This document shows positions 3,006 through 51,880 of a stretch of 64,000 nucleotides of DNA, piece by piece. Below the pieces are notes generated by a model that was given only the letters and a program-made list of their open reading frames with translations, was not told where the DNA came from and did no database searches. Every line of letters begins with the position of its first letter. The first letter of the stretch is position 1. Both the position numbers and the translations under genes were made by a program. This DNA is from a phage, in assembly GCA_024683775.1 (NCBI GenBank), contig GCA_024683775.1_4106.1; one strand, 5' to 3'.

Positions 3006-3014
3006 TCTAAATTT

Positions 3015-3040
3015 GGGAGTACATTGTACTCCCATTTTCT
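3015..3040 (+). terminator. intrinsic terminator
   Basis: GGGAGTAC pairs with GTACTCCC, followed by ATTTTCT. Confidence 0.6.
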
Positions 3041-3052
3041 ATAGGATTTATT

Positions 3053-4205: not shown

Positions 4206-4207
4206 AT

Positions 4208-4561: not shown

Positions 4562-4563
4562 TT

Positions 4564-5055
4564 ATGTTTGAATTTCCTGAAGAGTCATTTAACTATATTG
4601 ACCCTACTGATGACGGATACAGACACATTAATATCTATAGTAAAGCTAAAACTAAGTTAGGTAGGGATCTATCTAACTTTTCGTCACATAGTTTTACCTT
4701 AGAACCATACGGTTGGTTCCCATCGGTAGAAACTTTTTATTTTTGGTTTTTAACAGGCCAGAAACATGATGATCTTAGAAAAGTGTCGGGTGCTGCTGCA
4801 AAAGCAGCGGCGAACAAGTATATGCACGACCGTATTGAAATGACACCCGAATGCATTTCTCGTATCCAGGATGCAATATGTGCTAAGATATTTCAAAACC
4901 CAGAACTTGCTGAACGATTGAGGAAAAGTAAGTTACCCTTCTATCATTACTATGTTTATGGTGGGAAGGTGGTTGATGTATCTGATGAACATGACTGGTT
5001 TGTTAAAACATTCGAAGATATAAGAATTGTTTTGAAGGAGAACCACAATGAGTAA
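4564..5055 (+). CDS. NADAR/YbiA-like domain protein (tentative)
   Basis: 'INIYSKAKTKLGRDLSNFSSHSF...GWFPSVETFYFW' and 'KIFQNPELAERLRKS' resemble the NADAR pattern (LSNF...F...G..y.S.EhyyQ ... Kf.qNp.l...Ll.t). Confidence 0.45.
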   Translation: MFEFPEESFNYIDPTDDGYRHINIYSKAKTKLGRDLSNFSSHSFTLEPYGWFPSVETFYFWFLTGQKHDDLRKVSGAAAKAAANKYMHDRIEMTPECISRIQDAICAKIFQNPELAERLRKSKLPFYHYYVYGGKVVDVSDEHDWFVKTFEDIRIVLKENHNE

Positions 5056-5326
5056 ATGTTGGGTATGTTGTAAGCAATTCGATGAAGATTATATTATTTC
5101 TTTGGATGTATTACCACAACAATACATGATATCTTCAGGGAAATATAAACTAGATACAGTTCCAACACCTAAGTATATGGGGATTTGTCCATTGTGTAAT
5201 GGGAATGGTGTATCGAATGAAGTTGTTGCATTCACAAATACACAAACTACTGATTGTGTCGCCGAATATATAAGAAAGAATCTGGCTTTTTTCACTAGGA
5301 GATTATATGAACGAGAGAATCTTTAA
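5048..5326 (+). CDS. small zinc-ribbon-like protein
   Basis: CxxC pairs: 'CWVCC' and 'CPLCNGNG'. Confidence 0.45.
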   Translation: MSKCWVCCKQFDEDYIISLDVLPQQYMISSGKYKLDTVPTPKYMGICPLCNGNGVSNEVVAFTNTQTTDCVAEYIRKNLAFFTRRLYERENL

Positions 5327-5543
5327 TTCATATGATATGGAAGATTTACTAATACCATCTGATAACAGTACTGTTAAAATGCAAATGTATTGGTTAGTAA
5401 AAGATGGAAAGGTATTCCAGCACAAAGTTACAAAAGTATGGCAATGTAATAAAAACAAATCTATAGTTGATGCACTCGCAACTGCATATCCTGGGGTAGA
5501 GGTTGTATTTTTACCATTTGCTTACATTAAGGAAATAAAATGA
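5307..5543 (+). CDS. hypothetical protein
   Basis: 78 aa ORF, co-directional. Confidence 0.45.
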   Translation: MNERIFNSYDMEDLLIPSDNSTVKMQMYWLVKDGKVFQHKVTKVWQCNKNKSIVDALATAYPGVEVVFLPFAYIKEIK

Positions 5544-5695
5544 AAAAAAACATGGACAATATTCGTAATACCTACTATAATGTTGTTATTGTCACTTACG
5601 GTCCCGCAAGGGCATGTTGTGGCACTGAATGTAGTAGAAATTATTCTTCTTGTAATTCACTGCATTGTATGTTACTATTATGTAAAATCGGATGA
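5540..5695 (+). CDS. small Cys-rich protein (51 aa; not in the supplied ORF track)
   Basis: ATG overlaps the upstream TGA (ATGA). My translation is MKKNMDNIRNTYYNVVIVTYGPARACCGTECSRNYSSCNSLHCMLLLCKIG. Confidence 0.3.
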   Translation: MKKNMDNIRNTYYNVVIVTYGPARACCGTECSRNYSSCNSLHCMLLLCKIG

Positions 5696-5704
5696 TAAAA
5701 AAAT

Positions 5705-6127
5705 ATGAAGTACTATCGAATTCGAGTTGGTGTAAGCTCTGGTTTTAGTAATTGGGTATATTATGATTTACCTGATAGCTATACCGTAGAAGATGTAATT
5801 GACTTATATTATGAAGAAGAGTCATGGGTATCCAGTACTGAAACACACAGTGTTGTGTGTGAAGAACTGAGTGCTGAAGATTACAAGCACTGTACCCAAG
5901 CAATGAAGTATTACAGTAAAGATGTGAAGATGTTATCTGAAAACGTTTTTCCTGTAAAAGAATGGGCAATTTTGCTTGCAAATCCTAACAAACCTGTTAG
6001 AATAGGTTATCCAAACAATCATATGGTTTATCGAATGAATGATAAACGTGAGCTAAGTTATCAGTATGATTACAGTGCTTCTAAGTTTGGAGTTCTAAAA
6101 CAATTTATGAAGGCTTATCCAGTATGA
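5705..6127 (+). CDS. hypothetical protein
   Basis: 140 aa ORF. Confidence 0.5.
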   Translation: MKYYRIRVGVSSGFSNWVYYDLPDSYTVEDVIDLYYEEESWVSSTETHSVVCEELSAEDYKHCTQAMKYYSKDVKMLSENVFPVKEWAILLANPNKPVRIGYPNNHMVYRMNDKRELSYQYDYSASKFGVLKQFMKAYPV

Positions 6128-6459
6128 GCAAAGACAGCAAAGAATTTATAGTGCGTTGTAGTTGTGGCGATAATACGGAACATTGTGTTCACATTTCACA
6201 ATTTGACTTGACACAAGAACATGGAGATGATAAACTTGGTCAATGTCTGGTGAGTATGCGTTTGAATCCTTTCTTAAAATGGTACAAACGTATATGGGTT
6301 GCATTGAAGTATATTTTCGGCGTAAACGACTTTCAATACAAAGAAGCAATGATTGATGTTGACATTCTGAAAGAAGTTGTGTTACAATTAGAAGATACCC
6401 GCTCCGATGAGGTAAAGAAAGAAGAAAGAGATAAACGTACTGATGTGAAGGTTTTATGA
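6124..6459 (+). CDS. hypothetical protein
   Basis: 111 aa ORF. ATGA overlap with the upstream gene. Contains 'CSCGDNTEHC'. Confidence 0.5.
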   Translation: MSKDSKEFIVRCSCGDNTEHCVHISQFDLTQEHGDDKLGQCLVSMRLNPFLKWYKRIWVALKYIFGVNDFQYKEAMIDVDILKEVVLQLEDTRSDEVKKEERDKRTDVKVL

Positions 6460-6650
6460 GTACTGAACTTTATGAAAAAAAGTACTGTACAAATTGTTCA
6501 ACCGAGTATACAATACAGGGTATGTTGATTTGTACAATATGCCAATCAAAACAGGCTGCCACTTTTATCGTTGATGATAGATTTGGTGATTTAAAACAGT
6601 TTAAAGCAAACCGTAATCTTCGTAACTTTAGCAATCTATATAAGGAATAA
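6456..6650 (+). CDS. small zinc-ribbon-like protein
   Basis: 'CTNCSTEY...CTICQSK' gives two CxxC pairs. ATGA overlap upstream. Confidence 0.45.
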   Translation: MSTELYEKKYCTNCSTEYTIQGMLICTICQSKQAATFIVDDRFGDLKQFKANRNLRNFSNLYKE

Positions 6651-6653
6651 CAC

Positions 6654-7082
6654 ATGAATATCGAACAAACTATCCGTAACCACTCTTTCTTCGCTGCTGA
6701 AACTGGTCGTGTAATCGAGAGCGTCAAAATTGAAGAACTGATGATTAACGTTAAATATAAAGAACTGAATGATGAGATTAGCAGCACCATTTGTGCACTA
6801 CGTGCTCCATTCCGTTCTGAAGCAGCTAAGAAACCTGCCTATGTACTGGCGATTGCATTGGGTTGTGTAGTGAAATTGGTCGTTGATGAAAATCAACTAA
6901 ATATCAAAGTTGCTCCAACCAACGATGAAGAAAACATCGACCTGAACTTTGAAGGTAATCTGGCTGAAGACGTATTCTTCCAACAATCACTGGTTTATGA
7001 TTTCCGTACCGTAACTCATGACCATATCAACTTTGTCAATGAGATGGTTGACATTGTAGCTGAATACGAAGCTTCCCTATAA
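6654..7082 (+). CDS. acidic-FQxS motif paralog family protein
   Basis: Motif 'AEDVFFQQSLVYD' about 40 aa from the C-terminus. Confidence 0.65.
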   Translation: MNIEQTIRNHSFFAAETGRVIESVKIEELMINVKYKELNDEISSTICALRAPFRSEAAKKPAYVLAIALGCVVKLVVDENQLNIKVAPTNDEENIDLNFEGNLAEDVFFQQSLVYDFRTVTHDHINFVNEMVDIVAEYEASL

Positions 7083-7095
7083 TTAGATTAACAAA

Positions 7096-7118
7096 AGCCT
7101 CCGTAATGGGGGCTTTTT
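7096..7118 (+). terminator. intrinsic terminator
   Basis: AGCCTCC-GTAAT-GGGGGCT hairpin followed by TTTT. Confidence 0.65.
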
Positions 7119-7138
7119 CCAACATAAGGATATGAATA

Positions 7139-7690
7139 ATGATTGACCAAATTAAAATCCTAACTGAACAAATCACTGATTTTCTAGCAGATAAAGATGG
7201 ATTCAGTACTGAAGTTAAAATGCATGGTGTTAGTCTCGATGTAACTGCACCAAATGGTGAAACAACCAATTATGATATGTATGAAATCCTACTTTATACA
7301 TTGGCTGTTCGTAAACTTGGTAGTGATATTGAACTGAACATTAACAAAACCGAGAACGGTGACCAAGTGTTTGCAATCAACACTGGTGCACAAATGGACG
7401 TAGTAGCTGAAATCAACAAGATCAACCAATCTTTTGTGGGTTTCAAGCATGATACAATCCAATCTGTGTTCCTGGGTAAACAAACCGGAAACAGCCACTG
7501 TCCTTATTGTGTAATGACAACCTATAAAAATGGTAACTGGATGCGTCAGGATCTAGTACTTGCAGAAATGCTTTATGCAATCACTCACGGCCTAGAACTT
7601 GAACTTGATGATAGTGTTTACTGTTTCAAGAAAATCCGTAAACTTTCTGGTGATATACAAGCTCAATTAAAAGAATTAAATGATAAATAA
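7139..7690 (+). CDS. hypothetical protein
   Basis: 183 aa ORF downstream of the terminator. Confidence 0.55.
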   Translation: MIDQIKILTEQITDFLADKDGFSTEVKMHGVSLDVTAPNGETTNYDMYEILLYTLAVRKLGSDIELNINKTENGDQVFAINTGAQMDVVAEINKINQSFVGFKHDTIQSVFLGKQTGNSHCPYCVMTTYKNGNWMRQDLVLAEMLYAITHGLELELDDSVYCFKKIRKLSGDIQAQLKELNDK

Positions 7691-7801
7691 TTATACCAGT
7701 AATGGTTAACATTATCATGTTACTTTCCTCCCTTACATAATAATGATGCGTTATTATTTTATTGTATTATTCCCCTTTTTTGTACAAAATCTTTTTCGTA
7801 C

Positions 7802-7826
7802 TGCCCCGACCTTCGGGGCATTTTTC
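7802..7826 (+). terminator. intrinsic terminator
   Basis: TGCCCCGA-CCT-TCGGGGCA hairpin followed by TTTTT. Confidence 0.7.
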
Positions 7827-7847
7827 TTGTCTAAATTTTGAGGTTCT

Positions 7848-8243
7848 ATGAATAATACTATTGGTAGTACAATATCTAAACCACTCTCTTATTACCTTGA
7901 AAAATTCAGAAGTACAAATGGTAAAAAATTTAATGGTATATACCAATTCTCACATAAAGAATATATCACAGTTGATTGTTATTCAAATAAACTTATGTAC
8001 GTAGATGATACTGAATACTGTATGAAATTGTCATTGGATGTAGAATTAGATAAGTTAACATTTATTGAATATACATCCAAAAGAACATCATTTCTTGGGA
8101 AATGTAATCGAAAAGTATATAAAAATATTTCAATGTACTTAAATGAAGATTACCACTTCCAACAAACAACGATTGAAGATGTTCTATTCAGTACTGAAGA
8201 ATTGAAAGAACTGTATCACTGGTATAAGCAATTCACATCTTGA
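7848..8243 (+). CDS. acidic-FQxS motif paralog family protein
   Basis: Motif 'NEDYHFQQTTIED'. The stop TGA lies inside the next promoter's TTGACA. Confidence 0.65.
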   Translation: MNNTIGSTISKPLSYYLEKFRSTNGKKFNGIYQFSHKEYITVDCYSNKLMYVDDTEYCMKLSLDVELDKLTFIEYTSKRTSFLGKCNRKVYKNISMYLNEDYHFQQTTIEDVLFSTEELKELYHWYKQFTS

Positions 8244-8268
8244 CATTATCGTGGGTTTATCCTACAAT
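8240..8268 (+). promoter_or_regulatory. sigma70-type promoter
   Basis: TTGACA at 8240-8245, 17 bp spacer, TACAAT at 8263-8268. Confidence 0.55.
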
Positions 8269-8298
8269 GTAAGATAATGATACATAGAGGATAAATTT

Positions 8299-8709
8299 AT
8301 GAGTTTAGATTTACACAATGAACTAAAATATTATTTCGATTTGGATATATCACATTTGAACCAACACGTCAATTATATGACTAGTACTATGTGGTGGTCT
8401 GATGAGTTTGATGAACCAAAAATCCAACTTTGTGGTGATTTGTCTGTTTTGAGGTTGTATGCCCTTGATTCGGAAATGAATATCAAGATCACATACATCC
8501 CATACACAAACAAACTTATTGTAAACACCCTAAACCCAGTTACCGTATTGAAAATTTCTGATTTGGACACGATACAGTCAGATGAATCACTATTCCAACG
8601 TTCTTTGATTGATGATATGGGTGGTATTTTATATGAAGATATTGTACAATTGAAGAAGATGTATAGTGAATTGTTAGAAATTAAAAACACAGTAATTGTG
8701 GGGAGTTGA
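8299..8709 (+). CDS. acidic-FQxS motif paralog family protein
   Basis: Motif 'SDESLFQRSLIDD'. Confidence 0.65.
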   Translation: MSLDLHNELKYYFDLDISHLNQHVNYMTSTMWWSDEFDEPKIQLCGDLSVLRLYALDSEMNIKITYIPYTNKLIVNTLNPVTVLKISDLDTIQSDESLFQRSLIDDMGGILYEDIVQLKKMYSELLEIKNTVIVGS

Positions 8710-8710
8710 T

Positions 8711-9115
8711 ATGGTAAGTTTACTTGATATTGATAATACCAGTCTAGTACTGGTAAAAAAAGGTGTAATTCCCAATTCTACAAAAATTGATTATGCAGTT
8801 ATTGAAACAAATATTGGAAATATCTGGTATGACTCCGAAAGGGATATTGTGATTAGCTGCGTAGACAGTGACCGTGCTGAGTGTTGTAGGGTTGGTCATG
8901 ACGGGCAATTTATTTTCGAATTCCGTTACTGGAAAGATGCTAAATTCCATCATGAGCATGTTTCAATTACAGGTGTGTATTGCACCGAAGAATCGTTCTT
9001 CATGGATAGTACTGTTAATGATTTTGGTTCAGTTACATTTGAGTACTATAAAAAAGTATACAACGTATCCAGAGAAGTAATGCGAATCATCAGAAATGCT
9101 GAGGGTCAAGATTAA
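8711..9115 (+). CDS. acidic-FQxS motif paralog family protein
   Basis: Motif 'TEESFFMDSTVND'. I prefer the ATG at 8711 over the non-ATG start at 8696 in the ORF track. Confidence 0.6.
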   Translation: MVSLLDIDNTSLVLVKKGVIPNSTKIDYAVIETNIGNIWYDSERDIVISCVDSDRAECCRVGHDGQFIFEFRYWKDAKFHHEHVSITGVYCTEESFFMDSTVNDFGSVTFEYYKKVYNVSREVMRIIRNAEGQD

Positions 9116-9116
9116 C

Positions 9117-9491
9117 ATGACTACTATATATGACATTTTAGGTGACTTGAATAAAAATATAGATAATGATTTTGTTATTGTTCAAGATACTAGAAATTTA
9201 TTTCAACTACCAATAGGTTCACCAGATAGGTTAATTTTTAATAGATACGCAAAAACACTGACATACCTACACGATGGTATGGTTATATTGGTACTTGATA
9301 TTAAAGAAAATACAATACGATATGCATATGACTTCAAAGATTATTGGTCAAGAACCCATAGTATTGATATTGAGGAAGAGGAACTATTCCAATTGTCATT
9401 GATTGAGGAAAATGTAATAGGAATTACAGAAATTGATATTGTTAAAAAAGCATTAGACTATACAAATATAAAAATTAATGGTGAGCTATGA
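9117..9491 (+). CDS. acidic-FQxS motif paralog family protein
   Basis: Motif 'EEEELFQLSLIEE'. The ATG at 9117 avoids overlap with the upstream gene; 9096 is an alternative. Confidence 0.6.
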   Translation: MTTIYDILGDLNKNIDNDFVIVQDTRNLFQLPIGSPDRLIFNRYAKTLTYLHDGMVILVLDIKENTIRYAYDFKDYWSRTHSIDIEEEELFQLSLIEENVIGITEIDIVKKALDYTNIKINGEL

Positions 9492-9943
9492 TGGAAATTG
9501 ATGAAATAAAAAATCATTTTGAAATTGCATTGTCTTGTAAATTTGATGGCTCTTATGTTCCTGATCCAGAAGAGATAATTAGAATTTCCACATCGTTTTC
9601 GGAAGAGTACAATGTTCTTATTGAGAAAACATATGACAGTACGGAACTCGCATTTTACAATAAGAATTCACGAACAACAACATTTATATTATTATATAAC
9701 ACAACATCGGATTTAATAGAAATTATAACATGTAAAACAATCAAAGATGTACATTATGAGACTATATCAAATGTGAGTTATTGTTCAACTGAAGAAGGAT
9801 ACTTTCAGGAATCTCTTGTTAAAAATTTAACAGTTAGTTATTCTGATTTAAGCACTATAATCAATTGTGTTGAAAAGCTAAATGATTTCGTTCTATCTAT
9901 GTTTGATATCACAGAGCAAAACCCGAAGGTAATCAAATGCTAA
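9488..9943 (+). CDS. acidic-FQxS motif paralog family protein
   Basis: Motif 'TEEGYFQESLVKN'. ATGA overlap upstream. Confidence 0.65.
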   Translation: MMEIDEIKNHFEIALSCKFDGSYVPDPEEIIRISTSFSEEYNVLIEKTYDSTELAFYNKNSRTTTFILLYNTTSDLIEIITCKTIKDVHYETISNVSYCSTEEGYFQESLVKNLTVSYSDLSTIINCVEKLNDFVLSMFDITEQNPKVIKC

Positions 9944-10392
9944 ATCCAGGACAGTTTTTCCATTTACTTAGTATTACACCTATACCGGATTTAATCAGTG
10001 AAGCGAATCAATATCGTGATATAGGAATTGTATCTATGGAATACGATTCACCTGACTTTAAATGTTACGTAACATATGATTTGGTAGCCTATGAGTCAGA
10101 AACTGAGATAAAAAAACCATCATACATTTTTGTGTTCATATATAATGATTATAGTGGTGATCTACTCAATGATGTTCATATTGACACATTTGAAATATGT
10201 GATAATATTATAACAGATGATTCATCATGTACATTTGATTTATCAGAAAACAGTACTGAAGAGGCACTTTTTCAGTTGAGTACTGTTAGTGACACTGTAC
10301 TAACTCTTGATGACATTGAGAAATTTAAAGAACAGCTTGACGCAGTACGTGAGATGTTCTATAATCATTATCCAGAAATCGAGTTCAAATAA
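9937..10392 (+). CDS. acidic-FQxS motif paralog family protein
   Basis: Motif 'TEEALFQLSTVSD'. Confidence 0.65.
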   Translation: MLNPGQFFHLLSITPIPDLISEANQYRDIGIVSMEYDSPDFKCYVTYDLVAYESETEIKKPSYIFVFIYNDYSGDLLNDVHIDTFEICDNIITDDSSCTFDLSENSTEEALFQLSTVSDTVLTLDDIEKFKEQLDAVREMFYNHYPEIEFK

Positions 10393-11049: not shown

Positions 11050-11910
11050 ATGAAACCTATCAGAGTACTGTCACTTTTTAATGGAATGAGCGTTGGATAT
11101 ATGGCATTGGCAGATGCAGGTATTCCAGTTGAAAAATATTACTCATCTGAAATTGACAAGTACGCAATTGCTGAATCTTCCGAGAATTTTCCTGATATTA
11201 TCCAGTTAGGTGATGTGACTAAGTGGAAAGAATGGGATATTGAGTGGGATAAGATAGATTTACTCATGGGAGGATTCCCATGTCAAGCCTGGTCTGTTGC
11301 TGGTAAGCAAGGTGGCTTGAATGATATACGTGGACAGTTATTTTTGGTTATGGTTGATATTTTTGAGCACATCAAAAGTGTAAATCCAAACTTGCAATTT
11401 CTGTTCGAGAATGTTAAAATGAAGGAAGATTTCAAAGAATACATTAATAGTATTTTAGGAATCACACCAGTACTGATAAATTCCCAGCATTATACGCCTC
11501 ACTTCAGGCAGAGATACTACTGGTGCAGTACTGATAAGCTTTTTATACCACCTGCATTATCAAATGCCCCTAAACTTCAAGATATCATTGAAGATGGTTG
11601 GTATACTGACAGAACCGCTTCGTACTGTATAGATGCTAACTATTTTAAGGGTGGTGATTGTAACCAGTACTTTAATAAATCAAGACGACAGTTGGTGTTT
11701 CGTGACCCAACGATTAATCGTCAATATCTATTGGAGAATGGTAAAAGAAATATTGACTATAGACACTTAAGTGTAGTAGAATGTTGTAAATTACAGGGTA
11801 TTCCTGTAGATTTCTTTAAAGTGTCTAGTAAGACACAAGCATACAAAATGCTTGGGAATGGATGGACTATGCCAGTTATATCACACTTACTAAGAGAGAT
11901 ATTCTTTTGA
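11050..11910 (+). CDS. C5 cytosine-specific DNA methyltransferase (orphan; no nuclease partner seen)
   Basis: Motif I 'VLSLFNGMSVG', motif IV 'GGFPCQAWSVAG', motif VI 'FLFENVKMK', motif VIII-like 'QRYYW' and motif X 'GNGWTMPV'. Confidence 0.85.
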   Translation: MKPIRVLSLFNGMSVGYMALADAGIPVEKYYSSEIDKYAIAESSENFPDIIQLGDVTKWKEWDIEWDKIDLLMGGFPCQAWSVAGKQGGLNDIRGQLFLVMVDIFEHIKSVNPNLQFLFENVKMKEDFKEYINSILGITPVLINSQHYTPHFRQRYYWCSTDKLFIPPALSNAPKLQDIIEDGWYTDRTASYCIDANYFKGGDCNQYFNKSRRQLVFRDPTINRQYLLENGKRNIDYRHLSVVECCKLQGIPVDFFKVSSKTQAYKMLGNGWTMPVISHLLREIFF

Positions 11911-12398: not shown

Positions 12399-12422
12399 AT
12401 CCACGCTATGCGTGGATTTTTC
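12399..12422 (+). terminator. intrinsic terminator
   Basis: ATCCACGC-TAT-GCGTGGAT hairpin followed by TTTTT. Confidence 0.7.
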
Positions 12423-12434
12423 ATAGGTGCATAT

Positions 12435-12950
12435 ATGACAGTTCCTTATGTTAAAATTATTAATAATATCCTTGATTCGTGGGAAGATGTTATTACTGGT
12501 AAAAAGAACCCAATGCCAGTACACGCACTAACCGGAAGACTACAATTCAGAACGTCAAACAAAACTGAAACTTTTAATAATCATGATGTTCACATTACTA
12601 TAAAATCACCTGTACGTATTGTAATTAAAAAAAATCAAGATGATGAATTGACATTATCTATTGGTAGTGATAAAATCATTTTGAGTAATTTATCCGAAGA
12701 AGAATTCTTTCAACGTAGTACTATCATCGATATGAAAGATTTCACATATGAATCATTGGTTGAACTCAATACACGTTTCAACGATATTCAGGAACGATTG
12801 CGACCAATCCTCGGTAAAGAAGAGGAAGCCTGGAATGAAAGTGTGAGAAAGATGCAAGAAATGTTGAAAGAAAATATTAACAATCTGGGTAAAGCTACAA
12901 TGGAATTTGGTAAATCTTTTAAACTGAACTTTTCAAAGGATCGTAAATGA
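12435..12950 (+). CDS. acidic-FQxS motif paralog family protein
   Basis: Motif 'SEEEFFQRSTIID'. The track start at 12408 lies inside the terminator hairpin, so I prefer the ATG at 12435. Confidence 0.6.
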   Translation: MTVPYVKIINNILDSWEDVITGKKNPMPVHALTGRLQFRTSNKTETFNNHDVHITIKSPVRIVIKKNQDDELTLSIGSDKIILSNLSEEEFFQRSTIIDMKDFTYESLVELNTRFNDIQERLRPILGKEEEAWNESVRKMQEMLKENINNLGKATMEFGKSFKLNFSKDRK

Positions 12951-13402
12951 AAATTGATAATTTGATTCATGTCTTAGGGACTTTACATAAAATATTATCT
13001 CATGTAGATGAGATAAAGAAACTGGGACTTAACATCTCAAATTCAATTGAAACTACATTTAAATATCAATCAATTACTGGTGATGGTTATTACATAATCG
13101 AATATACTTATGAAACCGATCCAGACTTCTATCCTCTTACGTTGAGAATTTATCCAACAAATCCGAGAGGAATTCACGACATATCATCAATTTCACTTGA
13201 TCCAGATGGTGAAACGAGTATTGAATACAATAATGATTCAAAACCAGAATTTTACATTGATGATATTAAAAAGTTGTTCAATGATGAATATGTTTTCCAA
13301 CAAAGTACTGTGCATGATGTTGGTAGTACTACTGGGCAATTTTGGAATACATGTTATTATCATATGATTGAAATTTGTAAATTACTAAAAGGTGTTGAAT
13401 AA
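12947..13402 (+). CDS. acidic-FQxS motif paralog family protein
   Basis: Motif 'NDEYVFQQSTVHD'. ATGA overlap upstream. Confidence 0.65.
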   Translation: MKIDNLIHVLGTLHKILSHVDEIKKLGLNISNSIETTFKYQSITGDGYYIIEYTYETDPDFYPLTLRIYPTNPRGIHDISSISLDPDGETSIEYNNDSKPEFYIDDIKKLFNDEYVFQQSTVHDVGSTTGQFWNTCYYHMIEICKLLKGVE

Positions 13403-13785
13403 TGAAATACTGCATTGAAGTACATTACACTACAGGTGATACTGAAAATTGTTATGACGTTCTTAATACAATTGATATTCAATGGTCTTCTAAAGAGGAA
13501 GCAGTTGCTGCTTTACAGTGCCTAAAAGAGCATTGGGTGTTTTATATGAAGCAAGATAATTGCTATACAAAAGAACACGAAACGATCATGGAAAATGCTA
13601 AACAAAAAGAGTGGTTTGACCCAATATCACCAGAATATTCATTCTTAGTTAAAGTTGGTGATGTGACAGTTCCATTACGAACACCGTGGAACGGCTACTT
13701 TGAAACTCTTCATAATGCACGAGTTGTCGCTGTTGATAACCCTGAACAAATCGATTTCGATTCATTGGACTGGAAAAAACTATGA
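13402..13785 (+). CDS. hypothetical protein
   Basis: 127 aa ORF. TAATG overlap upstream. Confidence 0.55.
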   Translation: MKYCIEVHYTTGDTENCYDVLNTIDIQWSSKEEAVAALQCLKEHWVFYMKQDNCYTKEHETIMENAKQKEWFDPISPEYSFLVKVGDVTVPLRTPWNGYFETLHNARVVAVDNPEQIDFDSLDWKKL

Positions 13786-14225
13786 CAGTACTGCACCGAT
13801 TGAAGAAGGTTAAGCATCCAGTTGTATATGAGGACTGGAAACGACAGAAGTTGCTGGGTGATTTTTATTACCCAAAATCTAAAGTTCTTGCGAATTCAAG
13901 ATGTACATATTGCACACATAATGATAAAGATACAGTATTTGTCGAAATGGGTTTCCATCCATCAAACACAATGTTCACTACTAACCAAACGTTTTACAAA
14001 TTTCATATACAAAAAGATTCATTTACTGTTATGATTATAAAACATTTAGTTGAAGATCTGGCATTCAGTGAAGAACGAGTACCTTTATCATTAGTGGATA
14101 TTCCTTATAATAATTTAGAGGAAATGTACTTCCAACAGTTGACAGTACAAGAAAACTTTGGTATGATAGGACTTCAAGAGTTAGAGATGATTAAGCAAAT
14201 TCGTGATATCTACTTTAAGGAGTAA
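13782..14225 (+). CDS. acidic-FQxS motif paralog family protein
   Basis: Motif 'LEEMYFQQLTVQE'. ATGA overlap upstream. Confidence 0.65.
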   Translation: MTVLHRLKKVKHPVVYEDWKRQKLLGDFYYPKSKVLANSRCTYCTHNDKDTVFVEMGFHPSNTMFTTNQTFYKFHIQKDSFTVMIIKHLVEDLAFSEERVPLSLVDIPYNNLEEMYFQQLTVQENFGMIGLQELEMIKQIRDIYFKE

Positions 14226-19060: not shown

Positions 19061-19279
19061 ATGAAATTTATTAATTTTGATATTTCTAAGGTCAAAGAAT
19101 TATTTGTAAGAAATGCAGTTTATGATATCATGTTACATAACGGTACTGTACAAGAAGATGTTGTATTGTTTTCGTTTGATGGTGAAAATCTCGAAACTAT
19201 ATATAAATTCAGCAACTTAGATGGTGACTTTTGGGAAACCAGTGCTGTTAAAATGTATAGAATTAAAAAGGAGCATTAA
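19061..19279 (+). CDS. hypothetical protein
   Basis: AGGAGGA RBS before the ATG at 19061. Confidence 0.55.
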   Translation: MKFINFDISKVKELFVRNAVYDIMLHNGTVQEDVVLFSFDGENLETIYKFSNLDGDFWETSAVKMYRIKKEH

Positions 19280-19280
19280 T

Positions 19281-19769
19281 ATGCCAATTCGTGGTGTCCC
19301 AGAACCATTAACTGAAGTTATTAAGCATGTTCGCATTGGAGATCGAGAAGTTAATCTGCGACGTGGTAATATATATTACTTTAAAACTTCAGATATGAGT
19401 TCTGTGCAGATTGTCATTGGTACATCTATTATGATTACTCGCGTACTTGATGGTAGTACTGACTTCGTTGGGTACAATGTACTTACTAATAAAGTAACAC
19501 ATACATATAAATGGAGTGGATATAAAACTATTAAGTATGAATTTGACTTAGCTAGAACTGAAGAAGAACGATTTATGCTGAGTACTATCAATCCAGCAAA
19601 CTATCCAGATCTTGATGCATTTTTGCTAATTTTAAAATTGTATAATGAAGCAAATCAGAAAGCTAAAGAGTATGATAGAATCATGTATGAACGCCGAAAA
19701 GAACGTGCACAAAAAAGTTATGATCTGTATGATAGCCCATACGTGAAATATAGTAAGGGGTCGAAATGA
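19281..19769 (+). CDS. acidic-FQxS motif paralog family protein (FM variant)
   Basis: Motif 'TEEERFMLSTINP'. AAGGAG RBS before the ATG at 19281. Confidence 0.6.
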   Translation: MPIRGVPEPLTEVIKHVRIGDREVNLRRGNIYYFKTSDMSSVQIVIGTSIMITRVLDGSTDFVGYNVLTNKVTHTYKWSGYKTIKYEFDLARTEEERFMLSTINPANYPDLDAFLLILKLYNEANQKAKEYDRIMYERRKERAQKSYDLYDSPYVKYSKGSK

Positions 19770-22171: not shown

Positions 22172-22763
<592 letters not shown>

Positions 22764-22767
<4 letters not shown>

Positions 22768-23155: not shown

Positions 23156-23533
<378 letters not shown>

Positions 23534-28870: not shown

Positions 28871-29296
28871 ATGACATACAACATTGTTAAAATGGTGAAC
28901 TACGTATTAAAAAACAACGCATGGTCACTACATGATGTACAATTAAAAGATATTGGTGAAGTTAGAGTTTTTTGCTATGATGACGATTTGAACGAAACCA
29001 CTGATTTGAGTAAATGTTTTAATATTTTTCTTGGTTATGAAATCAATGATCATTTTTATTCATTTGATGTGTATTTTGAACGAGTTAAAATCAGAATTTA
29101 TTCAGTAGATAATGATTTTTATGATTATGATAACGAATCAATTGAATTGAATTTTAACGATATTGATACTGAAGAAAAATTCTTCCAGTACTGTCTCGTA
29201 AACGATCTAAATGGATTGACATTTGAGGACATTAGTGCTATCCTTAAAGTTAAAAGATTGATTCCAGAAGAGGTTCCAAATCCGTTTAATGACTAG
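28871..29296 (+). CDS. acidic-FQxS motif paralog family protein
   Basis: Motif 'DTEEKFFQYCLVND'. Confidence 0.65.
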   Translation: MTYNIVKMVNYVLKNNAWSLHDVQLKDIGEVRVFCYDDDLNETTDLSKCFNIFLGYEINDHFYSFDVYFERVKIRIYSVDNDFYDYDNESIELNFNDIDTEEKFFQYCLVNDLNGLTFEDISAILKVKRLIPEEVPNPFND

Positions 29297-29648
29297 TTTA
29301 ATAACTCGTATAATGCAAGATGTTCGTAAGAATCTTTATACTGGTAATTTTGATGATCCTAACATAAAAATATTATGTTATGATGTATTCACACTGGTAC
29401 ACCCATCTGAATCTAATAATATATACATAGCATATACTTCTCCTGATATTTTGTATCAATTTGATTTATATAGTACAATGGCTAAGATAACATTAGATGT
29501 TTCTAAGGAGCCATTTTTTATAGCAGTACATGATTTTGAGTACACAGAAGAGTCATTATTCCAGTACTCAATGATAAATGACATTGGTGACTTGACATTA
29601 GAAGAGATAAATGTTATAGTTGGTATGTGTCGTTTGATTAATCCATAA
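29289..29648 (+). CDS. acidic-FQxS motif paralog family protein
   Basis: Motif 'YTEESLFQYSMIND'. Confidence 0.65.
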   Translation: MTSLITRIMQDVRKNLYTGNFDDPNIKILCYDVFTLVHPSESNNIYIAYTSPDILYQFDLYSTMAKITLDVSKEPFFIAVHDFEYTEESLFQYSMINDIGDLTLEEINVIVGMCRLINP

Positions 29649-30329: not shown

Positions 30330-30361
30330 AGGCTGATTCATAATGAATCGGCCTTTTTTTC
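30330..30361 (+). terminator. hairpin plus T-run overlapping a promoter (TTGACA 30297-30302)
   Basis: AGGCTGATTCA-TAA-TGAATCGGCCT hairpin followed by TTTTTTT. Confidence 0.6.
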
Positions 30362-30378
30362 TTGTGGGGATTAATGTA

Positions 30379-30795
30379 ATGAATAAAGAAGTTATTAGTT
30401 TAATGGATGAGTATATCAACCAAACATATCGTTTTATATTTTTTAATGCATTTGAGTCCAGAACAACGTATTATTCTGGTGAATATGAGATAATAACTGG
30501 ATCATTTCTTAACGGATACATGGAGTTTTTAGAACAAAGCGATAATGTGTTCATTTCCATATCTGAAAAACATGGTAATGATTATGTTATTGATATGTGG
30601 CCTAATAAAGTAGAGATTGATACCACGCACAAAATCGTAATTGATGTGGATGAATCGTTGTATGATTTAACTGAAGATATGTACATGCAACTAAATTTCG
30701 TATACGATCTAACTAACATAAGTTATTCTAATCTAAGTAAATTATTTTATATTTGTGGTGTACTACATAAAAACGTACAACAAAATAAAGGATAA
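30379..30795 (+). CDS. acidic-FQxS motif paralog family protein (divergent, YMQ variant)
   Basis: Motif 'LTEDMYMQLNFVYD'. The track start at 30343 lies in the terminator hairpin, so I prefer the ATG at 30379. Confidence 0.55.
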   Translation: MNKEVISLMDEYINQTYRFIFFNAFESRTTYYSGEYEIITGSFLNGYMEFLEQSDNVFISISEKHGNDYVIDMWPNKVEIDTTHKIVIDVDESLYDLTEDMYMQLNFVYDLTNISYSNLSKLFYICGVLHKNVQQNKG

Positions 30796-30803
30796 ACATT
30801 TAA

Positions 30804-31208
30804 ATGTTGAAAATTCCACCACATACACTATCTATGCTAATTGAAAATGGTGTAATATTTTCTGAAGGGTGTAGTTCATTCTATACATGTGACGTAGACC
30901 CGTATACATTTGAATACCGTTCATTTAAAAATACATTGAGTGTTCCATGTGAAGCTTCTGACAACATTGTACTTGTCGTTTCGTTCTATGGTGTGCCAAA
31001 ATTCTTCATTGATATATATTATGATTCTTTTAAGATACAAACATACGATCATTTTCTTGGTGAAGTGCTCTTGCAAATGCAGATTGAACATGTTACTATA
31101 GATGAAGATATGTTCTTTCAGCTATCTACATTATACGATATGTGTGGATTGTCAGTTGACAACATAAATGGTATATTTGAAATTGCCAGAAACCTACGAG
31201 GAAGATGA
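30804..31208 (+). CDS. acidic-FQxS motif paralog family protein
   Basis: Motif 'IDEDMFFQLSTLYD'. Confidence 0.65.
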   Translation: MLKIPPHTLSMLIENGVIFSEGCSSFYTCDVDPYTFEYRSFKNTLSVPCEASDNIVLVVSFYGVPKFFIDIYYDSFKIQTYDHFLGEVLLQMQIEHVTIDEDMFFQLSTLYDMCGLSVDNINGIFEIARNLRGR

Positions 31209-31209
31209 T

Positions 31210-31617
31210 ATGAATAAAATTTTAAGTGATAATGAGGTTGATATTGTCATTGATGTGCTTGAAAACAGTAATACATTTGAGAAGAAACACAGTACTGTAT
31301 ACTTCGGTAAAGATTGCTGGTTGAGCTATATATCTGATAATTCGTTTGTAATTCGTGTTGAAACGGGTGATATTGGATTTACGGTACATGCGGCACATAC
31401 CAAAACTGATAAACAAATCACTGTTATTGCTGACACGCCAAGTATCTGGGATAGAATTGATGATTGTGAACACTACACGTCAACATTCTATGATACAGAA
31501 GAAGAACATTTCATGGATAGTACGGTCAAAGAATTAACTATTCCATTTAAACTTATGAAAGCAGCAAGAGATTTTATTTTAAAATACAAAAAAATAGGAG
31601 TTGATGATGCAATTTAA
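31210..31617 (+). CDS. acidic-FQxS motif paralog family protein (FM variant)
   Basis: Motif 'DTEEEHFMDSTVKE'. The ATG at 31210 follows the upstream stop directly. Confidence 0.6.
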   Translation: MNKILSDNEVDIVIDVLENSNTFEKKHSTVYFGKDCWLSYISDNSFVIRVETGDIGFTVHAAHTKTDKQITVIADTPSIWDRIDDCEHYTSTFYDTEEEHFMDSTVKELTIPFKLMKAARDFILKYKKIGVDDAI

Positions 31618-45193: not shown

Positions 45194-45394
45194 ATGTTTA
45201 CTTTATATCTCGCAGTAGTTCTCACCAATGGTGAAATCACTCGTACTATTGGTGAAGGTGTATATAAAACACCAGACCAGTGCTACTCTGCTACTCATTG
45301 GCCTCGCGATAGTGGGGATGAAACTCGCACTGAATTCAAATGCATGAAAGTAAAAGGTGATTTTGTTAACCTTAAGGTTATCGAGGCGAAATAA
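45194..45394 (+). CDS. small hypothetical protein
   Basis: ATG at 45194 within track ORF 45137..45394. Confidence 0.45.
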   Translation: MFTLYLAVVLTNGEITRTIGEGVYKTPDQCYSATHWPRDSGDETRTEFKCMKVKGDFVNLKVIEAK

Positions 45395-45909
45395 TGGATA
45401 TTAATGAGTTGTTGATCTTATTGTTTAATCGTGGAAATGATGTAAGACGTTCTGAATATCAAGACAAAATTCACATTGAAACTGATAAATGTTATGGTAA
45501 AACAACTCATGAGATTTTGAAGCCAAATGGCAAACGATATGCCGATGTATGTTTTCATGAACGAAGTGATGGTAGTGAAATAATCAGTACTGAAATTGTG
45601 TTTTATGATAGATCCTCGGCAGGTTCGTATGAAATAGAACTTATATATTGCCCTGGTTCAGAAACACACAATAAACGTCAGATATTATATGATGTTTATT
45701 CACCTCCAGGTGTAGCTGAATATTTTGTTATTGATTACAGTACTGAAGAAAGTGTGTTTCAACAGAGCTTGATTCATAACTTCCAGTTGAATGATCCAAA
45801 TGTACCAAAGTTGTTCAAACTACTCGATACTATCGATGTTGATTTTGAATTTGTTATGTGCATTAGAACTTCCTTGATCGATGAATTTATGGAACTACTT
45901 AATATATGA
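45394..45909 (+). CDS. acidic-FQxS motif paralog family protein
   Basis: Motif 'STEESVFQQSLIHN'. Confidence 0.65.
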   Translation: MDINELLILLFNRGNDVRRSEYQDKIHIETDKCYGKTTHEILKPNGKRYADVCFHERSDGSEIISTEIVFYDRSSAGSYEIELIYCPGSETHNKRQILYDVYSPPGVAEYFVIDYSTEESVFQQSLIHNFQLNDPNVPKLFKLLDTIDVDFEFVMCIRTSLIDEFMELLNI

Positions 45910-51307: not shown

Positions 51308-51880
51308 ATGAATAGAAAAGGTAAGTTTAAAGTATCAAAGAAGAACAAAAGTTCTAGATTTAGACCTATAACTTTAACTTTTAAGGCTAAAGAAGAATTA
51401 ACTGCACTTAGTAAAAAGATAATTTCATCTAAGATTAAAGTATCATACGTAAATTCGGTAAAATTTCAGAAGGTTAAACCACAAGACAAACTCATTTCAC
51501 TTATATTTAAACGTAATGATTTTGAGATATTAGTAGATGATTATAGAGCCTATAATGCTGGATTCATTCATGTCACTTGTAATACCGAACTAACTGAGTT
51601 GGAACATTTGACATGTATCATAAGTGTAGATAACGGTGTGGTGAAGTACAATTTTTTACATTTTACCAATATCAATAATGGAATGGGTGTACAATCCAGA
51701 CCTATAGTACCTACATGTGATGTAACTAATTTAGCAAAGCTCAATGAAGAAGAATATTTTCAAGAAAGCATTGTAACTGAGCATTTAGATGCTATAATAG
51801 CAACTTACAAAGAATGCATATGGGTTTTGAATGCGATAAAGCCCAAATTGTGTTTAATGAATGTCGTTCGTGATTTATAA
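51308..51880 (+). CDS. acidic-FQxS motif paralog family protein (longer, basic N-terminus)
   Basis: Motif 'LNEEEYFQESIVTE'. Confidence 0.6.
   Translation: MNRKGKFKVSKKNKSSRFRPITLTFKAKEELTALSKKIISSKIKVSYVNSVKFQKVKPQDKLISLIFKRNDFEILVDDYRAYNAGFIHVTCNTELTELEHLTCIISVDNGVVKYNFLHFTNINNGMGVQSRPIVPTCDVTNLAKLNEEEYFQESIVTEHLDAIIATYKECIWVLNAIKPKLCLMNVVRDL

What the first reader, a model, noticed from the sequence alone, without database searches (positions are those of the whole stretch)
6654..10392. Tandem array of seven paralogous 'acidic-FQxS' genes
Seven of eight consecutive ORFs (6654, 7848, 8299, 8711, 9117, 9488, 9937) encode 124-151 aa proteins. Their N-terminal two-thirds are highly divergent. 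All share one short motif about 30-45 residues from the C-terminus: AEDVFFQQSLVYD, NEDYHFQQTTIED, SDESLFQRSLIDD, TEESFFMDSTVND, EEEELFQLSLIEE, TEEGYFQESLVKN and TEEALFQLSTVSD. A short helix-like tail follows the motif.

The consensus is roughly [ST]-E-E-x-x-[FY]-[FM]-Q-x-S-[TL]-[VI]-x-[DEN]. Most of the genes are translationally coupled. I do not recognise this family or the motif.

A hypervariable body on a fixed anchor motif is what one would expect from a diversified effector, decoy or adaptor set, for example host take-over or anti-defence proteins that dock to one common partner.
Basis: seen in the sequence. Interest (0 to 1): 0.8.

Follow-up and report, generated by a model that had tools for sequence, protein, structure and literature searches.

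The report
Giant early-gene family in jumbo phage
The seven look-alike genes are real, but they are a small part of a family of about 64 small acidic proteins (roughly one gene in nine) that E. coli jumbo phages of the 121Q/PBECO4/RaK2 group appear to make early in infection; nobody has described its shared motif, its fold or its function.

Summary
The window comes from an Asteriusvirus-type jumbo coliphage. The seven ORFs belong to one family with a C-terminal motif [ST]-E-E-x-[YF]-F-Q-x-S-[TL]-[VI]-x-[DEN]. The window holds 20 members, all on the + strand. The close relative phAPEC6 holds 64 (11.6% of its genes), in two blocks. An exhaustive search finds 132 divergent clusters. Every one whose source could be traced lies in RaK2/GAP32/CBB/121Q-type jumbo phages or jumbo-sized contigs, and none in bacterial genomes.

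There is no Pfam, NCBIfam, PDB or significant fold match. AlphaFold gives helix, five-strand β-meander, motif helix, C-terminal helix. The motif reads as an N-capped helix with one variable face.

The members are mostly acidic, soluble and absent from the published virion proteome. They sit in a region with 37 near-consensus σ70 promoters on the coding strand and none on the other.

"Hypervariable body" is not supported. Orthologues are conserved along their whole length (dN/dS about 0.2), and the array is collinear with RaK2, so the paralogues are old and individually retained.

My best reading is a library of early host-takeover or anti-defence binders built on one scaffold. The function is inferred, not shown. 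[quoted passage not shown]

The parts
6654..7082 (+). Family member 1 (142 aa, pI 4.55), motif AEDVFFQQSLVYD. Orthologue of phAPEC6 gp134c and of RaK2 ORF L004:6137-6652.
   Evidence: E 2e-13; 48% identity over 145 aa to the RaK2 ORF
7139..7690 (+). Non-member ORF (183 aa) that interrupts the array: the 'eighth ORF' of the finding.
   Evidence: E 4.6; not among the hits with E < 1
7802..7820 (+). Terminator-like GC hairpin followed by a T-run, in the 157-nt gap before member 2. A terminator is annotated in the corresponding gap of phage UE-S1.
7848..8243 (+). Family member 2 (131 aa), motif NEDYHFQQTTIED.
   Evidence: (E 3e-11)
8240..8268 (+). Near-consensus sigma-70-type promoter-like site (TTGACA-17-TACAAT), 31 nt upstream of member 3.
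8299..8709 (+). Family member 3 (136 aa, pI 4.43), motif SDESLFQRSLIDD.
   Evidence: (E 1e-14)
8711..9115 (+). Family member 4 (134 aa), motif TEESFFMDSTVND (Met in place of Gln). Starts 1 nt after the upstream stop.
   Evidence: (E 3e-19)
9117..9491 (+). Family member 5 (124 aa, pI 4.47), motif EEEELFQLSLIEE. Starts 1 nt after the upstream stop.
   Evidence: (E 1e-9)
9488..9943 (+). Family member 6 (151 aa, pI 4.42), motif TEEGYFQESLVKN. Overlaps the upstream stop by 4 nt.
   Evidence: (E 2e-17)
9937..10392 (+). Family member 7 (151 aa, pI 4.05, net charge -23), motif TEEALFQLSTVSD. Overlaps the upstream gene by 7 nt.
   Evidence: (E 5e-18)
12408..12950 (+). Family member 8 (180 aa; relatives annotate a 171-aa version), motif SEEEFFQRSTIID, with an extra basic C-terminal tail.
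   Evidence: (E 4e-17)
12947..13402 (+). Family member 9 (151 aa), motif NDEYVFQQSTVHD.
   Evidence: (E 2e-9)
13782..14225 (+). Family member 10 (147 aa), motif LEEMYFQQLTVQE.
   Evidence: (E 2e-13)
19221..19769 (+). Family member 11 (182 aa, basic, pI 9.4, long C-terminal tail), motif TEEERFMLSTINP.
   Evidence: (E 3e-14)
22402..22767 (+). Family member 12 (121 aa), motif TEEEYFQTSTVQE. A promoter-like site at 22343-22370 lies 32 nt upstream.
   Evidence: (E 6e-16)
23156..23533 (+). Family member 13 (125 aa), degenerate motif DAEDEFQKSTVYE.
   Evidence: (E 4e-12)
28871..29296 (+). Family member 14 (141 aa), motif TEEKFFQYCLVND. Best-scoring window member.
   Evidence: (E 4e-20)
29289..29648 (+). 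Family member 15 (119 aa, the shortest). This is the protein modelled by AlphaFold2: H4-17, five strands in 34-79, motif helix 87-96, helix 104-117.
   Evidence: (E 9e-10 from the seven-gene profile)
30343..30795 (+). Family member 16 (150 aa), degenerate motif TEDMYMQLNFVYD. A promoter-like site at 30298-30327 lies 16 nt upstream.
   Evidence: (E 2e-13)
30804..31208 (+). Family member 17 (134 aa), motif DEDMFFQLSTLYD.
   Evidence: E 3e-13
31168..31617 (+). Family member 18 (149 aa), motif TEEEHFMDSTVKE.
   Evidence: (E 3e-14)
45394..45909 (+). Family member 19 (171 aa), motif TEESVFQQSLIHN. Dispersed copy; orthologue of phAPEC6 gp054c.
   Evidence: (E 2e-11)
51308..51880 (+). Family member 20 (190 aa, basic, pI 9.3), motif NEEEYFQESIVTE. 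Dispersed copy; orthologue of phAPEC6 gp039c.
   Evidence: (E 2e-10)

Best explanation
The seven genes are part of 'block A' of a very large, old expansion of one protein family. The family appears confined to RaK2/121Q/GAP32/CBB-type jumbo myophages.

Shown:
- There are 20 copies in this window and 64 in the related phage phAPEC6, all on one strand.
- Each copy is a small, mostly acidic protein (about 110-200 aa) with no membrane segment.
- None is in the published virion proteome of phAPEC6.
- The genes lie in a region packed with near-consensus host-type (sigma-70) promoters on the coding strand only.
- Individual paralogues are retained as orthologues, under purifying selection, between coliphages and Klebsiella phage RaK2.

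Predicted:
- All copies share one compact alpha/beta domain: N-terminal helix, five-strand antiparallel meander, motif helix, turn, C-terminal helix.
- The motif [ST]-E-E-x-[YF]-F-Q-x-S-[TL]-[VI]-x-[DEN] is an N-capped helix. Thr/Ser is the cap and the acidic residues sit on the first turn. Only one narrow face of the helix (positions i, i+4, i+8) is variable, so the helix is mainly the conserved core of the fold, paired with the C-terminal helix.

Inferred:
- The proteins are made at the start of infection by unmodified host RNA polymerase.
- They act in the cytoplasm as a library of binders built on one scaffold. Each uses its own conserved sheet and loop surface to bind and neutralise, or redirect, a different host target (or a competitor or defence target).
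- This would be a phage counterpart of the multigene families of large eukaryotic DNA viruses.
For: Family and extent:
- The seven-gene profile finds 10 more window ORFs at E < 1e-3.
- The deep profile gives 20 members at E <= 2e-9, with the next ORF at E 0.04.
- An exhaustive scan of 1.84 billion representatives gives 132 clusters, and nearly all carry the motif.
- The phAPEC6 census converges at 64 members, all on one strand, and 60 of them have the E..FQ core.

Clade restriction:
- All 12 viral-contig motif matches lie in contigs of about 345-366 kb or in fragments. Two of the loci are 100% identical to RaK2 and GAP32.
- The 22 bacterial-genome matches have no profile support and are chance matches.
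- The BFVD structural neighbours are all uncharacterised proteins of this clade.

Fold and motif:
- AlphaFold2 model with pLDDT 77.6 and pTM 0.73.
- Residue frequencies over 142 sequences: E 95%, E 89%, F 98%, Q 86%, S 89%. The variable positions 89, 93 and 97 lie on one helical face.

Protein-level selection.

Soluble and acidic:
- Median pI is 4.6 against 6.5 for the other ORFs, and 15 of 20 members have pI below 5.
- Only one borderline hydrophobic segment was found.

Non-virion: none of the 64 phAPEC6 gp numbers appears in Table 1 of PMC7247149.

Early expression (inferred):
- The window has 37 promoter matches at >= 11 of 12 positions on the + strand and 0 on the - strand, against about 2 expected per strand. 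Eleven are perfect, and 20 of the 37 lie in the 11% of the window that is intergenic.
- phAPEC6 has 96 such sites on the gene strand and 12 on the other.
- The CBB paper predicts that the equivalent region is early.
- A phage RpoD-like sigma factor is encoded at 40146-41111.

Old, retained paralogues:
- Orthologues are 60-89% identical along their whole length.
- dN/dS is 0.21 in the body, 0.17 in the C-terminal module and 0.15 in the motif.
- The array is collinear with RaK2.
- The bodies keep weak family-wide homology.
Against: - No experiment bears on function, and no interaction partner is known.
- Early expression is inferred from promoter matches and has not been measured.
- Block B has a much lower promoter density than block A.
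- The model is only moderately confident, and residues 22-32 have pLDDT below 50. I could not inspect coordinates, so burial of the motif is inferred from helical periodicity alone.
- Near-invariance of the polar residues E87, E88, Q92 and S94 across 10-20%-identical paralogues is stronger than helix capping alone normally demands. It could mark a shared binding site, which is the rival reading.
- Virion mass spectrometry with 62 proteins may miss low-copy small proteins.
- Three window members are basic or near neutral rather than acidic.
Confidence: 0.5

Rival explanations
1. Common-partner docking module. The motif helix plus the C-terminal helix form a conserved interface that plugs every paralogue into one shared partner, while the divergent bodies select different cargo or targets. 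On this reading the family is a set of adaptors or decoys. Candidate partners are the host RNA polymerase or sigma-70, a sliding clamp, or the phage's own Clp protease (phAPEC6 encodes ClpP gp353c and a large Clp ATPase gp246c).
For: - The polar residues E, E, Q, S and D are 86-99% conserved across paralogues that are otherwise 9-22% identical.
- E87, F91, S94 and D98 fall on one helical stripe (i, i+4, i+7, i+11).
- The phage encodes ClpP and a Clp ATPase.
- The sub-motif Q-x-S-[LT]-[VIL] loosely resembles the bacterial beta-clamp-binding motif QL[SD]LF. That resemblance is recalled from my own knowledge and was not tested.
Against: - The motif is predicted to be helical inside a compact domain, with only a narrow variable face.
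- Much of the polar conservation is accounted for by two helix N-capping boxes, T-E-E-E and T-x-E-[DE].
- No partner has been identified.
- Position 5 of the clamp-like sub-motif is V or I, not F, and the motif is internal rather than in a disordered terminus.
- Co-occurrence with Clp cannot be separated from shared ancestry.
Confidence: 0.25
2. Hetero- or homo-oligomerising scaffold. The conserved helical hairpin is an oligomerisation interface, so that members assemble into acidic rings or mixed complexes in the manner of p32/Mam33 trimers. Such complexes would act as nucleic-acid or protein mimics or sponges.
For: - The secondary-structure order is of the same type as p32/Mam33: one N-terminal helix, an antiparallel meander, then two C-terminal helices (the p32 description is from my own knowledge).
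- p32, gC1qR and p22 dominate the top non-significant Foldseek hits.
- The proteins are strongly acidic.
Against: - No member matches the Pfam MAM33 family.
- The model has five strands, whereas p32 has seven.
- Oligomeric state could not be tested with these tools.
Confidence: 0.1
3. Processing or degradation signal. The motif is a protease recognition site or degron, used to clear or activate the early proteins at a set time. E-E-x-Y-F-Q-x-S resembles the potyviral NIa/TEV site E-N-L-Y-F-Q-S/G.
For: The only PDB sequence match of the family profile is the His-tag plus TEV-site linker 'DYDIPTTENLYFQGS' (E 1.6). This shows that the resemblance is objective.
Against: - The residue after Gln (the P1' position) is the most variable position in the motif (Q, L, E, Y) rather than Gly or Ser. 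The conserved Ser sits at P2'.
- The variable positions follow a helical i, i+4, i+8 pattern, and the segment is modelled as a helix at pLDDT above 80, not as an accessible extended peptide.
- No 3C- or NIa-like protease is annotated anywhere in phAPEC6. It has only a T4-type prohead protease, ClpP and a putative metallopeptidase.
- 14% of members have Met in place of Gln.
Confidence: 0.05
4. Functionless duplication. The copies are filler DNA produced by tandem duplication during genome expansion to fit a larger capsid, as suggested in general terms for the 121Q array.
For: - Hua et al. 2017 interpret the 121Q array as tandem duplication that contributed to genome growth.
- A few block-B neighbours are recent duplicates, up to 58% identical.
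- Block B content varies between strains, with 48-100% coverage.
Against: - dN/dS is about 0.2 in both body and motif.
- All copies keep intact reading frames.
- Collinear orthologues are retained between coliphages and RaK2 at 25-48% identity.
- A 13-residue motif is preserved across more than 130 clusters.
Confidence: 0.03

Closest known systems
[quoted passage not shown] 2013, PMC3622015)
   Same: Almost certainly the same family. Block B of phAPEC6 (38 members, 290.6-318 kb) is present in 121Q at 100% coverage and 96.7% identity. RaK2 carries both block-A-like and block-B-like members.
   Different: Those papers give one sentence each, with no motif, fold, family definition, expression class or function. 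The genes in this window (block A) are too divergent to have been counted: 16 of the 64 members have no BLASTP-detectable paralogue. The block-A copies are not 'very similar'. They are old paralogues that are individually conserved.
Lineage-specific expansion of about 35 zinc-ribbon proteins in Bacillus phage G (Iyer et al. 2021, PMC7824862)
   Same: A very large expansion of one small domain within a jumbo phage, with unknown function. That paper calls the expansion 'unprecedented'.
   Different: The domain is unrelated: the present family has no zinc ribbon and no conserved Cys or His pattern. The copy number here is about twice as high (64). The family is shared across several phage genera rather than confined to one genome.
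Multigene families of large eukaryotic DNA viruses, such as ASFV MGF360/505 and poxvirus Bcl-2-like or ankyrin families (comparison from my own knowledge)
   Same: Tens of paralogues of one fold are clustered in blocks, are non-structural and are expressed early. In those viruses the families are used for host-range and immune-evasion functions through divergent binding surfaces.
   Different: There is no sequence or fold relationship, and the host domain of life is different. For the phage family the function is only inferred.
p32 / gC1qR / Mam33 fold (Pfam PF02330)
   Different: The matches are not significant. No member matches the Pfam model. The model has five strands rather than seven, and the oligomeric state is unknown. 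This is a topological lead only.
Small acidic phage inhibitor or DNA-mimic proteins, such as Ocr, Arn and AcrIIA4 (comparison from my own knowledge)
   Same: Small, strongly acidic, cytoplasmic proteins made early in infection that neutralise host proteins by binding them.
   Different: There is no detectable sequence or structural similarity to any solved example. Those inhibitors are single genes, not families of 64 members.

Membership tests
Any curated protein family (Pfam-A, NCBIfam, PHROGs with a known function) | Profile match above the curated threshold | tested here: not met
   All 20 window members and all 142 aligned members were scanned. No Pfam family is shared by more than 3 members, and all of those matches are below threshold. 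NCBIfam gives nothing. PHROGs gives only per-orthologue families of unknown function, with weak cross-hits over the C-terminal module.
121Q/RaK2 paralogue array (the published but undefined expansion) | [quoted passage not shown] | tested here: met
   A profile built from window members and their relatives hits about 41 ORFs in phAPEC6 block B at E < 0.01, and these carry the same EE.[YFL]FQ.S core. The iterated census gives 38 block-B members at E < 1e-3. That block is 96.7% identical in 121Q.
p32 / Mam33 (PF02330) | Sequence match to the MAM33 profile | tested here: not met
   None of the 142 members matches it at E <= 1. No p32 chain appears in the PDB sequence search at E <= 10.
p32 / Mam33 (PF02330) | Fold: N-terminal helix, seven-strand antiparallel sheet, two C-terminal helices, superposable on p32 | tested here: inconclusive
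p32 / Mam33 (PF02330) | Doughnut-shaped homotrimer | not testable with these tools
   No multimer prediction was available, and the coordinates could not be inspected.
NIa/TEV-type (3C-like) protease substrate site | E-x-x-Y-x-Q followed by Gly or Ser at P1' | tested here: not met
   Glu, Tyr/Phe and Gln are present, but P1' is the most variable position of the motif (Q 21%, L 20%, E 14%, Y 9%). The conserved Ser is at P2'.
NIa/TEV-type (3C-like) protease substrate site | Accessible, extended conformation, and a cognate Gln-specific protease in the genome | tested here: not met
   The segment is modelled as a helix at pLDDT above 80, and its variable positions follow a helical periodicity. The full phAPEC6 annotation lists no 3C-like protease. 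That check rests on annotation only.
Bacterial beta-clamp-binding motif (QL[SD]LF) | Pentapeptide Q-L-[SD]-L-F in a flexible terminus or loop | tested here: not met
   The family has Q-x-S-[T 57% / L 36%]-[V/I/L], with no Phe at position 5, and the motif is internal to a predicted helix. Binding itself was not tested.
Virion (structural or injected) proteins | Detection in purified particles | tested here: not met
   None of the 64 phAPEC6 members is among the 62 virion proteins identified by mass spectrometry in PMC7247149. The 'virion structural protein' label near the array belongs to the non-member ORF at 6124-6459.
Early genes transcribed by host sigma-70 RNA polymerase | Near-consensus -35/-10 promoters on the coding strand, enriched upstream of the genes | tested here: met
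   The window has 37 such sites on the + strand and 0 on the - strand, against about 2 expected. Twenty of the 37 lie in the 10.9% of the window that is intergenic. The same strand bias is seen genome-wide in phAPEC6. Actual timing was not measured.

The most novel reading that the evidence does not exclude
The family is a new protein fold that jumbo phages have expanded into the largest known phage multigene family, about 64 genes. It would work as a modular adaptor system. The invariant acidic-aromatic helix (TEEEYFQxS) docks every member onto one hub, for example the phage-encoded Clp protease or the host transcription machinery. Each conserved body delivers or sequesters a different host protein. 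The phage would thus have a programmable, ubiquitin-ligase-like system for dismantling the host, including its defence systems.
Probability: 0.1. Interest if true: 0.85.

Novelty: new variant of a known kind. Interest (0 to 1): 0.62.

Why it matters
More than 80% of the genes of these 350-kb phages are annotated as 'hypothetical'. This analysis collapses about one gene in nine into a single family. The family now has a defined motif, a predicted fold and a likely expression class (early, non-virion), and it is conserved across coliphage, Klebsiella, Cronobacter, Pectobacterium and Yersinia jumbo phages.

That turns a large piece of phage 'dark matter' into a tractable question: what do 64 individually conserved variants of one small scaffold bind?

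These phages are being developed for therapy against E. coli, Klebsiella and Cronobacter. A large early-gene arsenal that may set host range or counter bacterial defences is directly relevant to that work. If the conserved helix proves to be a docking element, it would also offer a single handle for studying or disabling the whole set.

Tried and rejected
1. Compositional coincidence: rejected. See the codon shuffles, the seed-only profile and the synonymous-codon spread.

2. DNA-level signal or recombination artefact at the motif: rejected. Ser uses both the AGY and TCN codon families, and dS in the motif is 0.62.

3. Known family:
- Pfam, NCBIfam, PHROGs and PDB sequence searches gave nothing.
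- PADLOC was not run.
- The AFDB50 library was unavailable.

4. Presence in bacterial genomes or prophages: the 22 motif matches were chance, with no profile support.

5. Virion proteins: rejected.

6. Membrane or secreted proteins: rejected. There is only one borderline hydrophobic segment.

7. Ongoing diversifying selection on the bodies: rejected.

8. Bodies unrelated to one another: disfavoured. Leave-one-out profiles give z > 0 in 18 of 19 cases.

9. TEV-like cleavage site and beta-clamp motif: both fail their defining features (see the membership tests).

10. Steps that led nowhere:
- tblastn with the profile consensus found nothing, probably because of low-complexity masking.
- The first word-indexed homologue search returned only 13 proteins.
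- The first AlphaFold run, with 19 sequences, had too little confidence to use (pLDDT 56).
- One literature search was too broad to be useful.
- The CBB supplement held no paralogue table in searchable form.
- I could not identify which metagenomic member carries the RecQ-1-like HTH hit.

Full report
**1. What is there**

The window is 99.7% identical over the tested 7 kb to Escherichia phage WPEC5. It matches some 37 Asteriusvirus-type jumbo phages of E. coli and Salmonella, each 320-386 kb.

The intervening ORF at 7139-7690 is unrelated. Public records annotate all of these genes only as 'hypothetical protein'.

Five of the seven starts lie within 3 nt of, or overlap, the preceding stop codon. 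The other two follow gaps that contain a terminator-like hairpin (7802-7820) and a near-consensus promoter-like site (8240-8268).

**2. It is a real family, and much larger than seven**

- A profile built from the seven alone recovers ten more window ORFs at E < 1e-3.
- Iteration, and then a deeper profile, give 20 members at E <= 2e-9, with a clean gap to the next ORF at E 0.04. All 20 are on the + strand and together make up 13.8% of the window.
- An exhaustive HMMER scan of 1.84 billion representative proteins finds 132 clusters at 50% identity, all proteins of 60-210 aa. Aligned to the profile, nearly all carry the motif.

Over 142 sequences the motif frequencies are: T/S 83%, E 95%, E 89%, E 49%, Y/F/L 88%, F 98%, Q 86% (otherwise M), x, S 89%, T/L 93%, V/I/L 99%, x, D/E/N 99%.

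Selection acts on the protein. Phe and Gln use both synonymous codons, and Ser uses both the AGY and TCN codon families.

**3. Genome-wide census**

I assembled the complete genome of the relative phAPEC6 from eight fetched stretches and scanned all ORFs. The iterated profile converged on 64 members, every one on the same strand, and 60 of them have the E..F[QM] core. The distribution is:

- Block A, 29.9-71.3 kb: 20 members. This block corresponds to the window.
- Block B, 290.6-318.0 kb: 38 members.
- Six scattered copies.

Sixty-four members is 11.6% of the 551 predicted genes.

I checked that block B was not profile drift. Those ORFs show the same core at the same position.

Sixteen of the 64 members have no BLASTP-detectable paralogue. 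This explains why the family has not been recognised as a whole.

**4. Distribution**

- A degenerate DNA pattern for the motif hit 12 loci in IMG/VR. All lie in contigs of about 345-366 kb or in fragments, and each holds 1-7 profile-supported members.
- Two of those loci are 100% identical to Klebsiella phage RaK2 and Cronobacter phage GAP32.
- One 109-kb contig with seven members has no GenBank relative.
- The same pattern hit 22 bacterial or archaeal contigs, about the number expected by chance. None has profile support.
- Structural neighbours in BFVD are all uncharacterised proteins from PBECO4, UB, CBB, GAP32, RaK2 and Yersinia phages fHe-Yen9-03 and -04.

**5. Structure**

With 19 sequences AlphaFold2 gave a poor model (pLDDT 56). 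With the 142-sequence alignment, the 119-aa member at 29289-29648 gave pLDDT 77.6 and pTM 0.73. The model has a helix at 4-17, five strands within 34-79, a helix at 87-96 (the motif) and a helix at 104-117.

Three features make the helical assignment credible:

- The variable motif positions 89, 93 and 97 are spaced i, i+4, i+8.
- The preceding Thr/Ser followed by acidic residues is a classical N-capping box.
- A second box, T-x-E-[DE], precedes the last helix.

The single PDB sequence hit of the family profile is a His-tag plus TEV-site linker. That is a curiosity which shows that the motif resembles ENLYFQ/S.

**6. What kind of proteins these are**

- Fifteen of the 20 window members have pI below 5. 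The median is 4.6, against 6.5 for the other + strand ORFs.
- None has a convincing membrane segment.
- None of the 64 phAPEC6 members is among the 62 virion proteins found by mass spectrometry.
- The window carries 37 near-consensus sigma-70-type promoters (at least 11 of 12 positions, 11 of them perfect) on the + strand and none on the - strand. About 2 per strand are expected. More than half of them lie in the 11% of the window that is intergenic.
- Genome-wide in phAPEC6 the bias is 96 to 12, with both family blocks in promoter-bearing territory. Block B is much sparser than block A.
- The window also encodes an RpoD-like sigma factor (40146-41111) and a cytosine methyltransferase (11050-11910).
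- In phage CBB the equivalent region was predicted to be the early, host-takeover region.

Early expression is therefore a well-supported inference, but it has not been measured.

**7. Evolution**

- Between the window and phage UE-S1 (about 82% DNA identity), orthologues are 60-89% identical in protein along their whole length.
- Pooled dN/dS is 0.21 for the bodies, 0.17 for the C-terminal module and 0.15 for the 13-residue motif.
- The RaK2 array next to its methyltransferase is collinear with the window array. Its ORFs pair with the orthologues of 6654, 8299, 8711, 9488, 12947 and 13782, at 25-48% identity.
- Only a few block-B neighbours are recent duplicates, up to 58% identical. Block B content varies between strains.
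- The N-terminal bodies retain weak but consistent family-wide similarity in leave-one-out tests: z > 0 in 18 of 19, and z > 2 in ten.

The picture is an ancient expansion whose copies have each been kept for a distinct job. It is not a hypervariable cassette system.

**8. Mechanism**

Most likely (confidence about 0.5 for the whole statement; high for the descriptive parts, low for the function): a library of small, acidic, cytoplasmic proteins made at the onset of infection. They share one scaffold whose core is the capped motif helix paired with the C-terminal helix. Each uses its own conserved surface to bind a different host or defence target.

Main rival (0.25): the conserved helix is a docking surface for one shared hub. 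The near-invariance of polar residues is the best argument for this. The phage's own ClpP and Clp ATPase are an attractive but untested candidate hub.

Minor rivals:

- p32-like oligomeric scaffold (0.1).
- Protease site or degron (0.05). This fails on the P1' residue, on conformation and on the absence of a cognate protease.
- Functionless duplication (0.03). Purifying selection and cross-genus retention contradict it.

**9. Prior knowledge and novelty**

- Hua et al. [quoted passage not shown] That array is block B.
- The RaK2 paper noted that about 10% of its gene products are paralogues.
- A broad jumbo-phage survey called a ~35-copy expansion in phage G 'unprecedented' and did not mention this family.
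- A 2026 review repeats only the 'more than 30 genes' remark.

As far as the searched literature and libraries show, the following are new:

- the family definition and its motif;
- the predicted fold;
- the inclusion of the divergent block-A genes in this window;
- the true size of 64 members;
- the conservation across genera;
- the non-virion status and early-region placement.

No function is known.

**10. Verdict**

'Hypervariable' is wrong, and 'common anchor' is untested. I rate the finding as a new variant of a known kind (a multigene expansion in a large virus), with interest 0.62.

Noticed in passing
window 1-64000 (e.g. 589-617, 14698-14726, 20823-20850, 35365-35392, 43508-43535, 47470-47497, 58833-58860): There is an extreme strand asymmetry of near-consensus sigma-70 promoters: 37 on the + strand and 0 on the - strand, against about 2 expected. 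Eleven are perfect TTGACA-N16-18-TATAAT. The whole window looks like a host-polymerase-driven early region.
   Followed up: yes
phAPEC6 MK817115 290.6-318.0 kb (L040), gp404c-gp466c: A second and larger block of the same family lies outside the window's equivalent region. It holds 38 members. Many are 160-200 aa and have a different tail after the motif. This block is the '>30 gene array' mentioned for 121Q, and its content varies between strains.
   Followed up: yes
phAPEC6 MK817115 gp353c (263.7-264.4 kb) and gp246c (176.7-178.9 kb); outside the window: The phage encodes its own ClpP proteolytic subunit and a large Clp-type ATPase. Together they are a possible hub for an adaptor-type family, but the link is purely speculative.
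   Followed up: no
window 21649-28854: Seven tRNA genes are interspersed with family members: Ser-TGA, Ser-ACT, three Met-CAT, Asn-GTT and Thr-TGT. The Ser tRNA with anticodon ACT is unusual.
   Followed up: no
window 24439-26136 (- strand) and 34214-35371 (- strand): These are the only two sizeable minus-strand ORFs in the window. The 564-aa ORF sits inside the tRNA cluster and has no Pfam match. The 384-aa ORF has no Pfam match either; it corresponds to phAPEC6 gp077, a virion protein by mass spectrometry.
   Followed up: partly
alignment A2 (one metagenomic member, not identified): One of the 142 aligned family members matches Pfam RecQ-1-like_HTH at E 3.7e-12, which may be a domain fusion. 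It is not one of the 20 window members, nor one of the ten long representatives I re-scanned.
   Followed up: partly
L008 (IMGVR_UViG_3300007747_000009, 108,897 bp) 2800-8400: Seven family members lie in about 6 kb of a viral contig that has no megablast match in GenBank phages. This is probably an undescribed relative of the clade.
   Followed up: partly
window 61648-62418: This 256-aa ORF has weak AAA/STAND-type NTPase matches, all below the Pfam thresholds except the generic AAA family.
   Followed up: no
family motif, e.g. window 9788-9826 (TEEGYFQESLVKN): The family profile's only PDB sequence hit is the His-tag plus TEV-site linker of an expression construct (9m0a_B, E 1.6). This is not homology. 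It is a reminder that tag sequences in the PDB can give spurious matches.
   Followed up: yes
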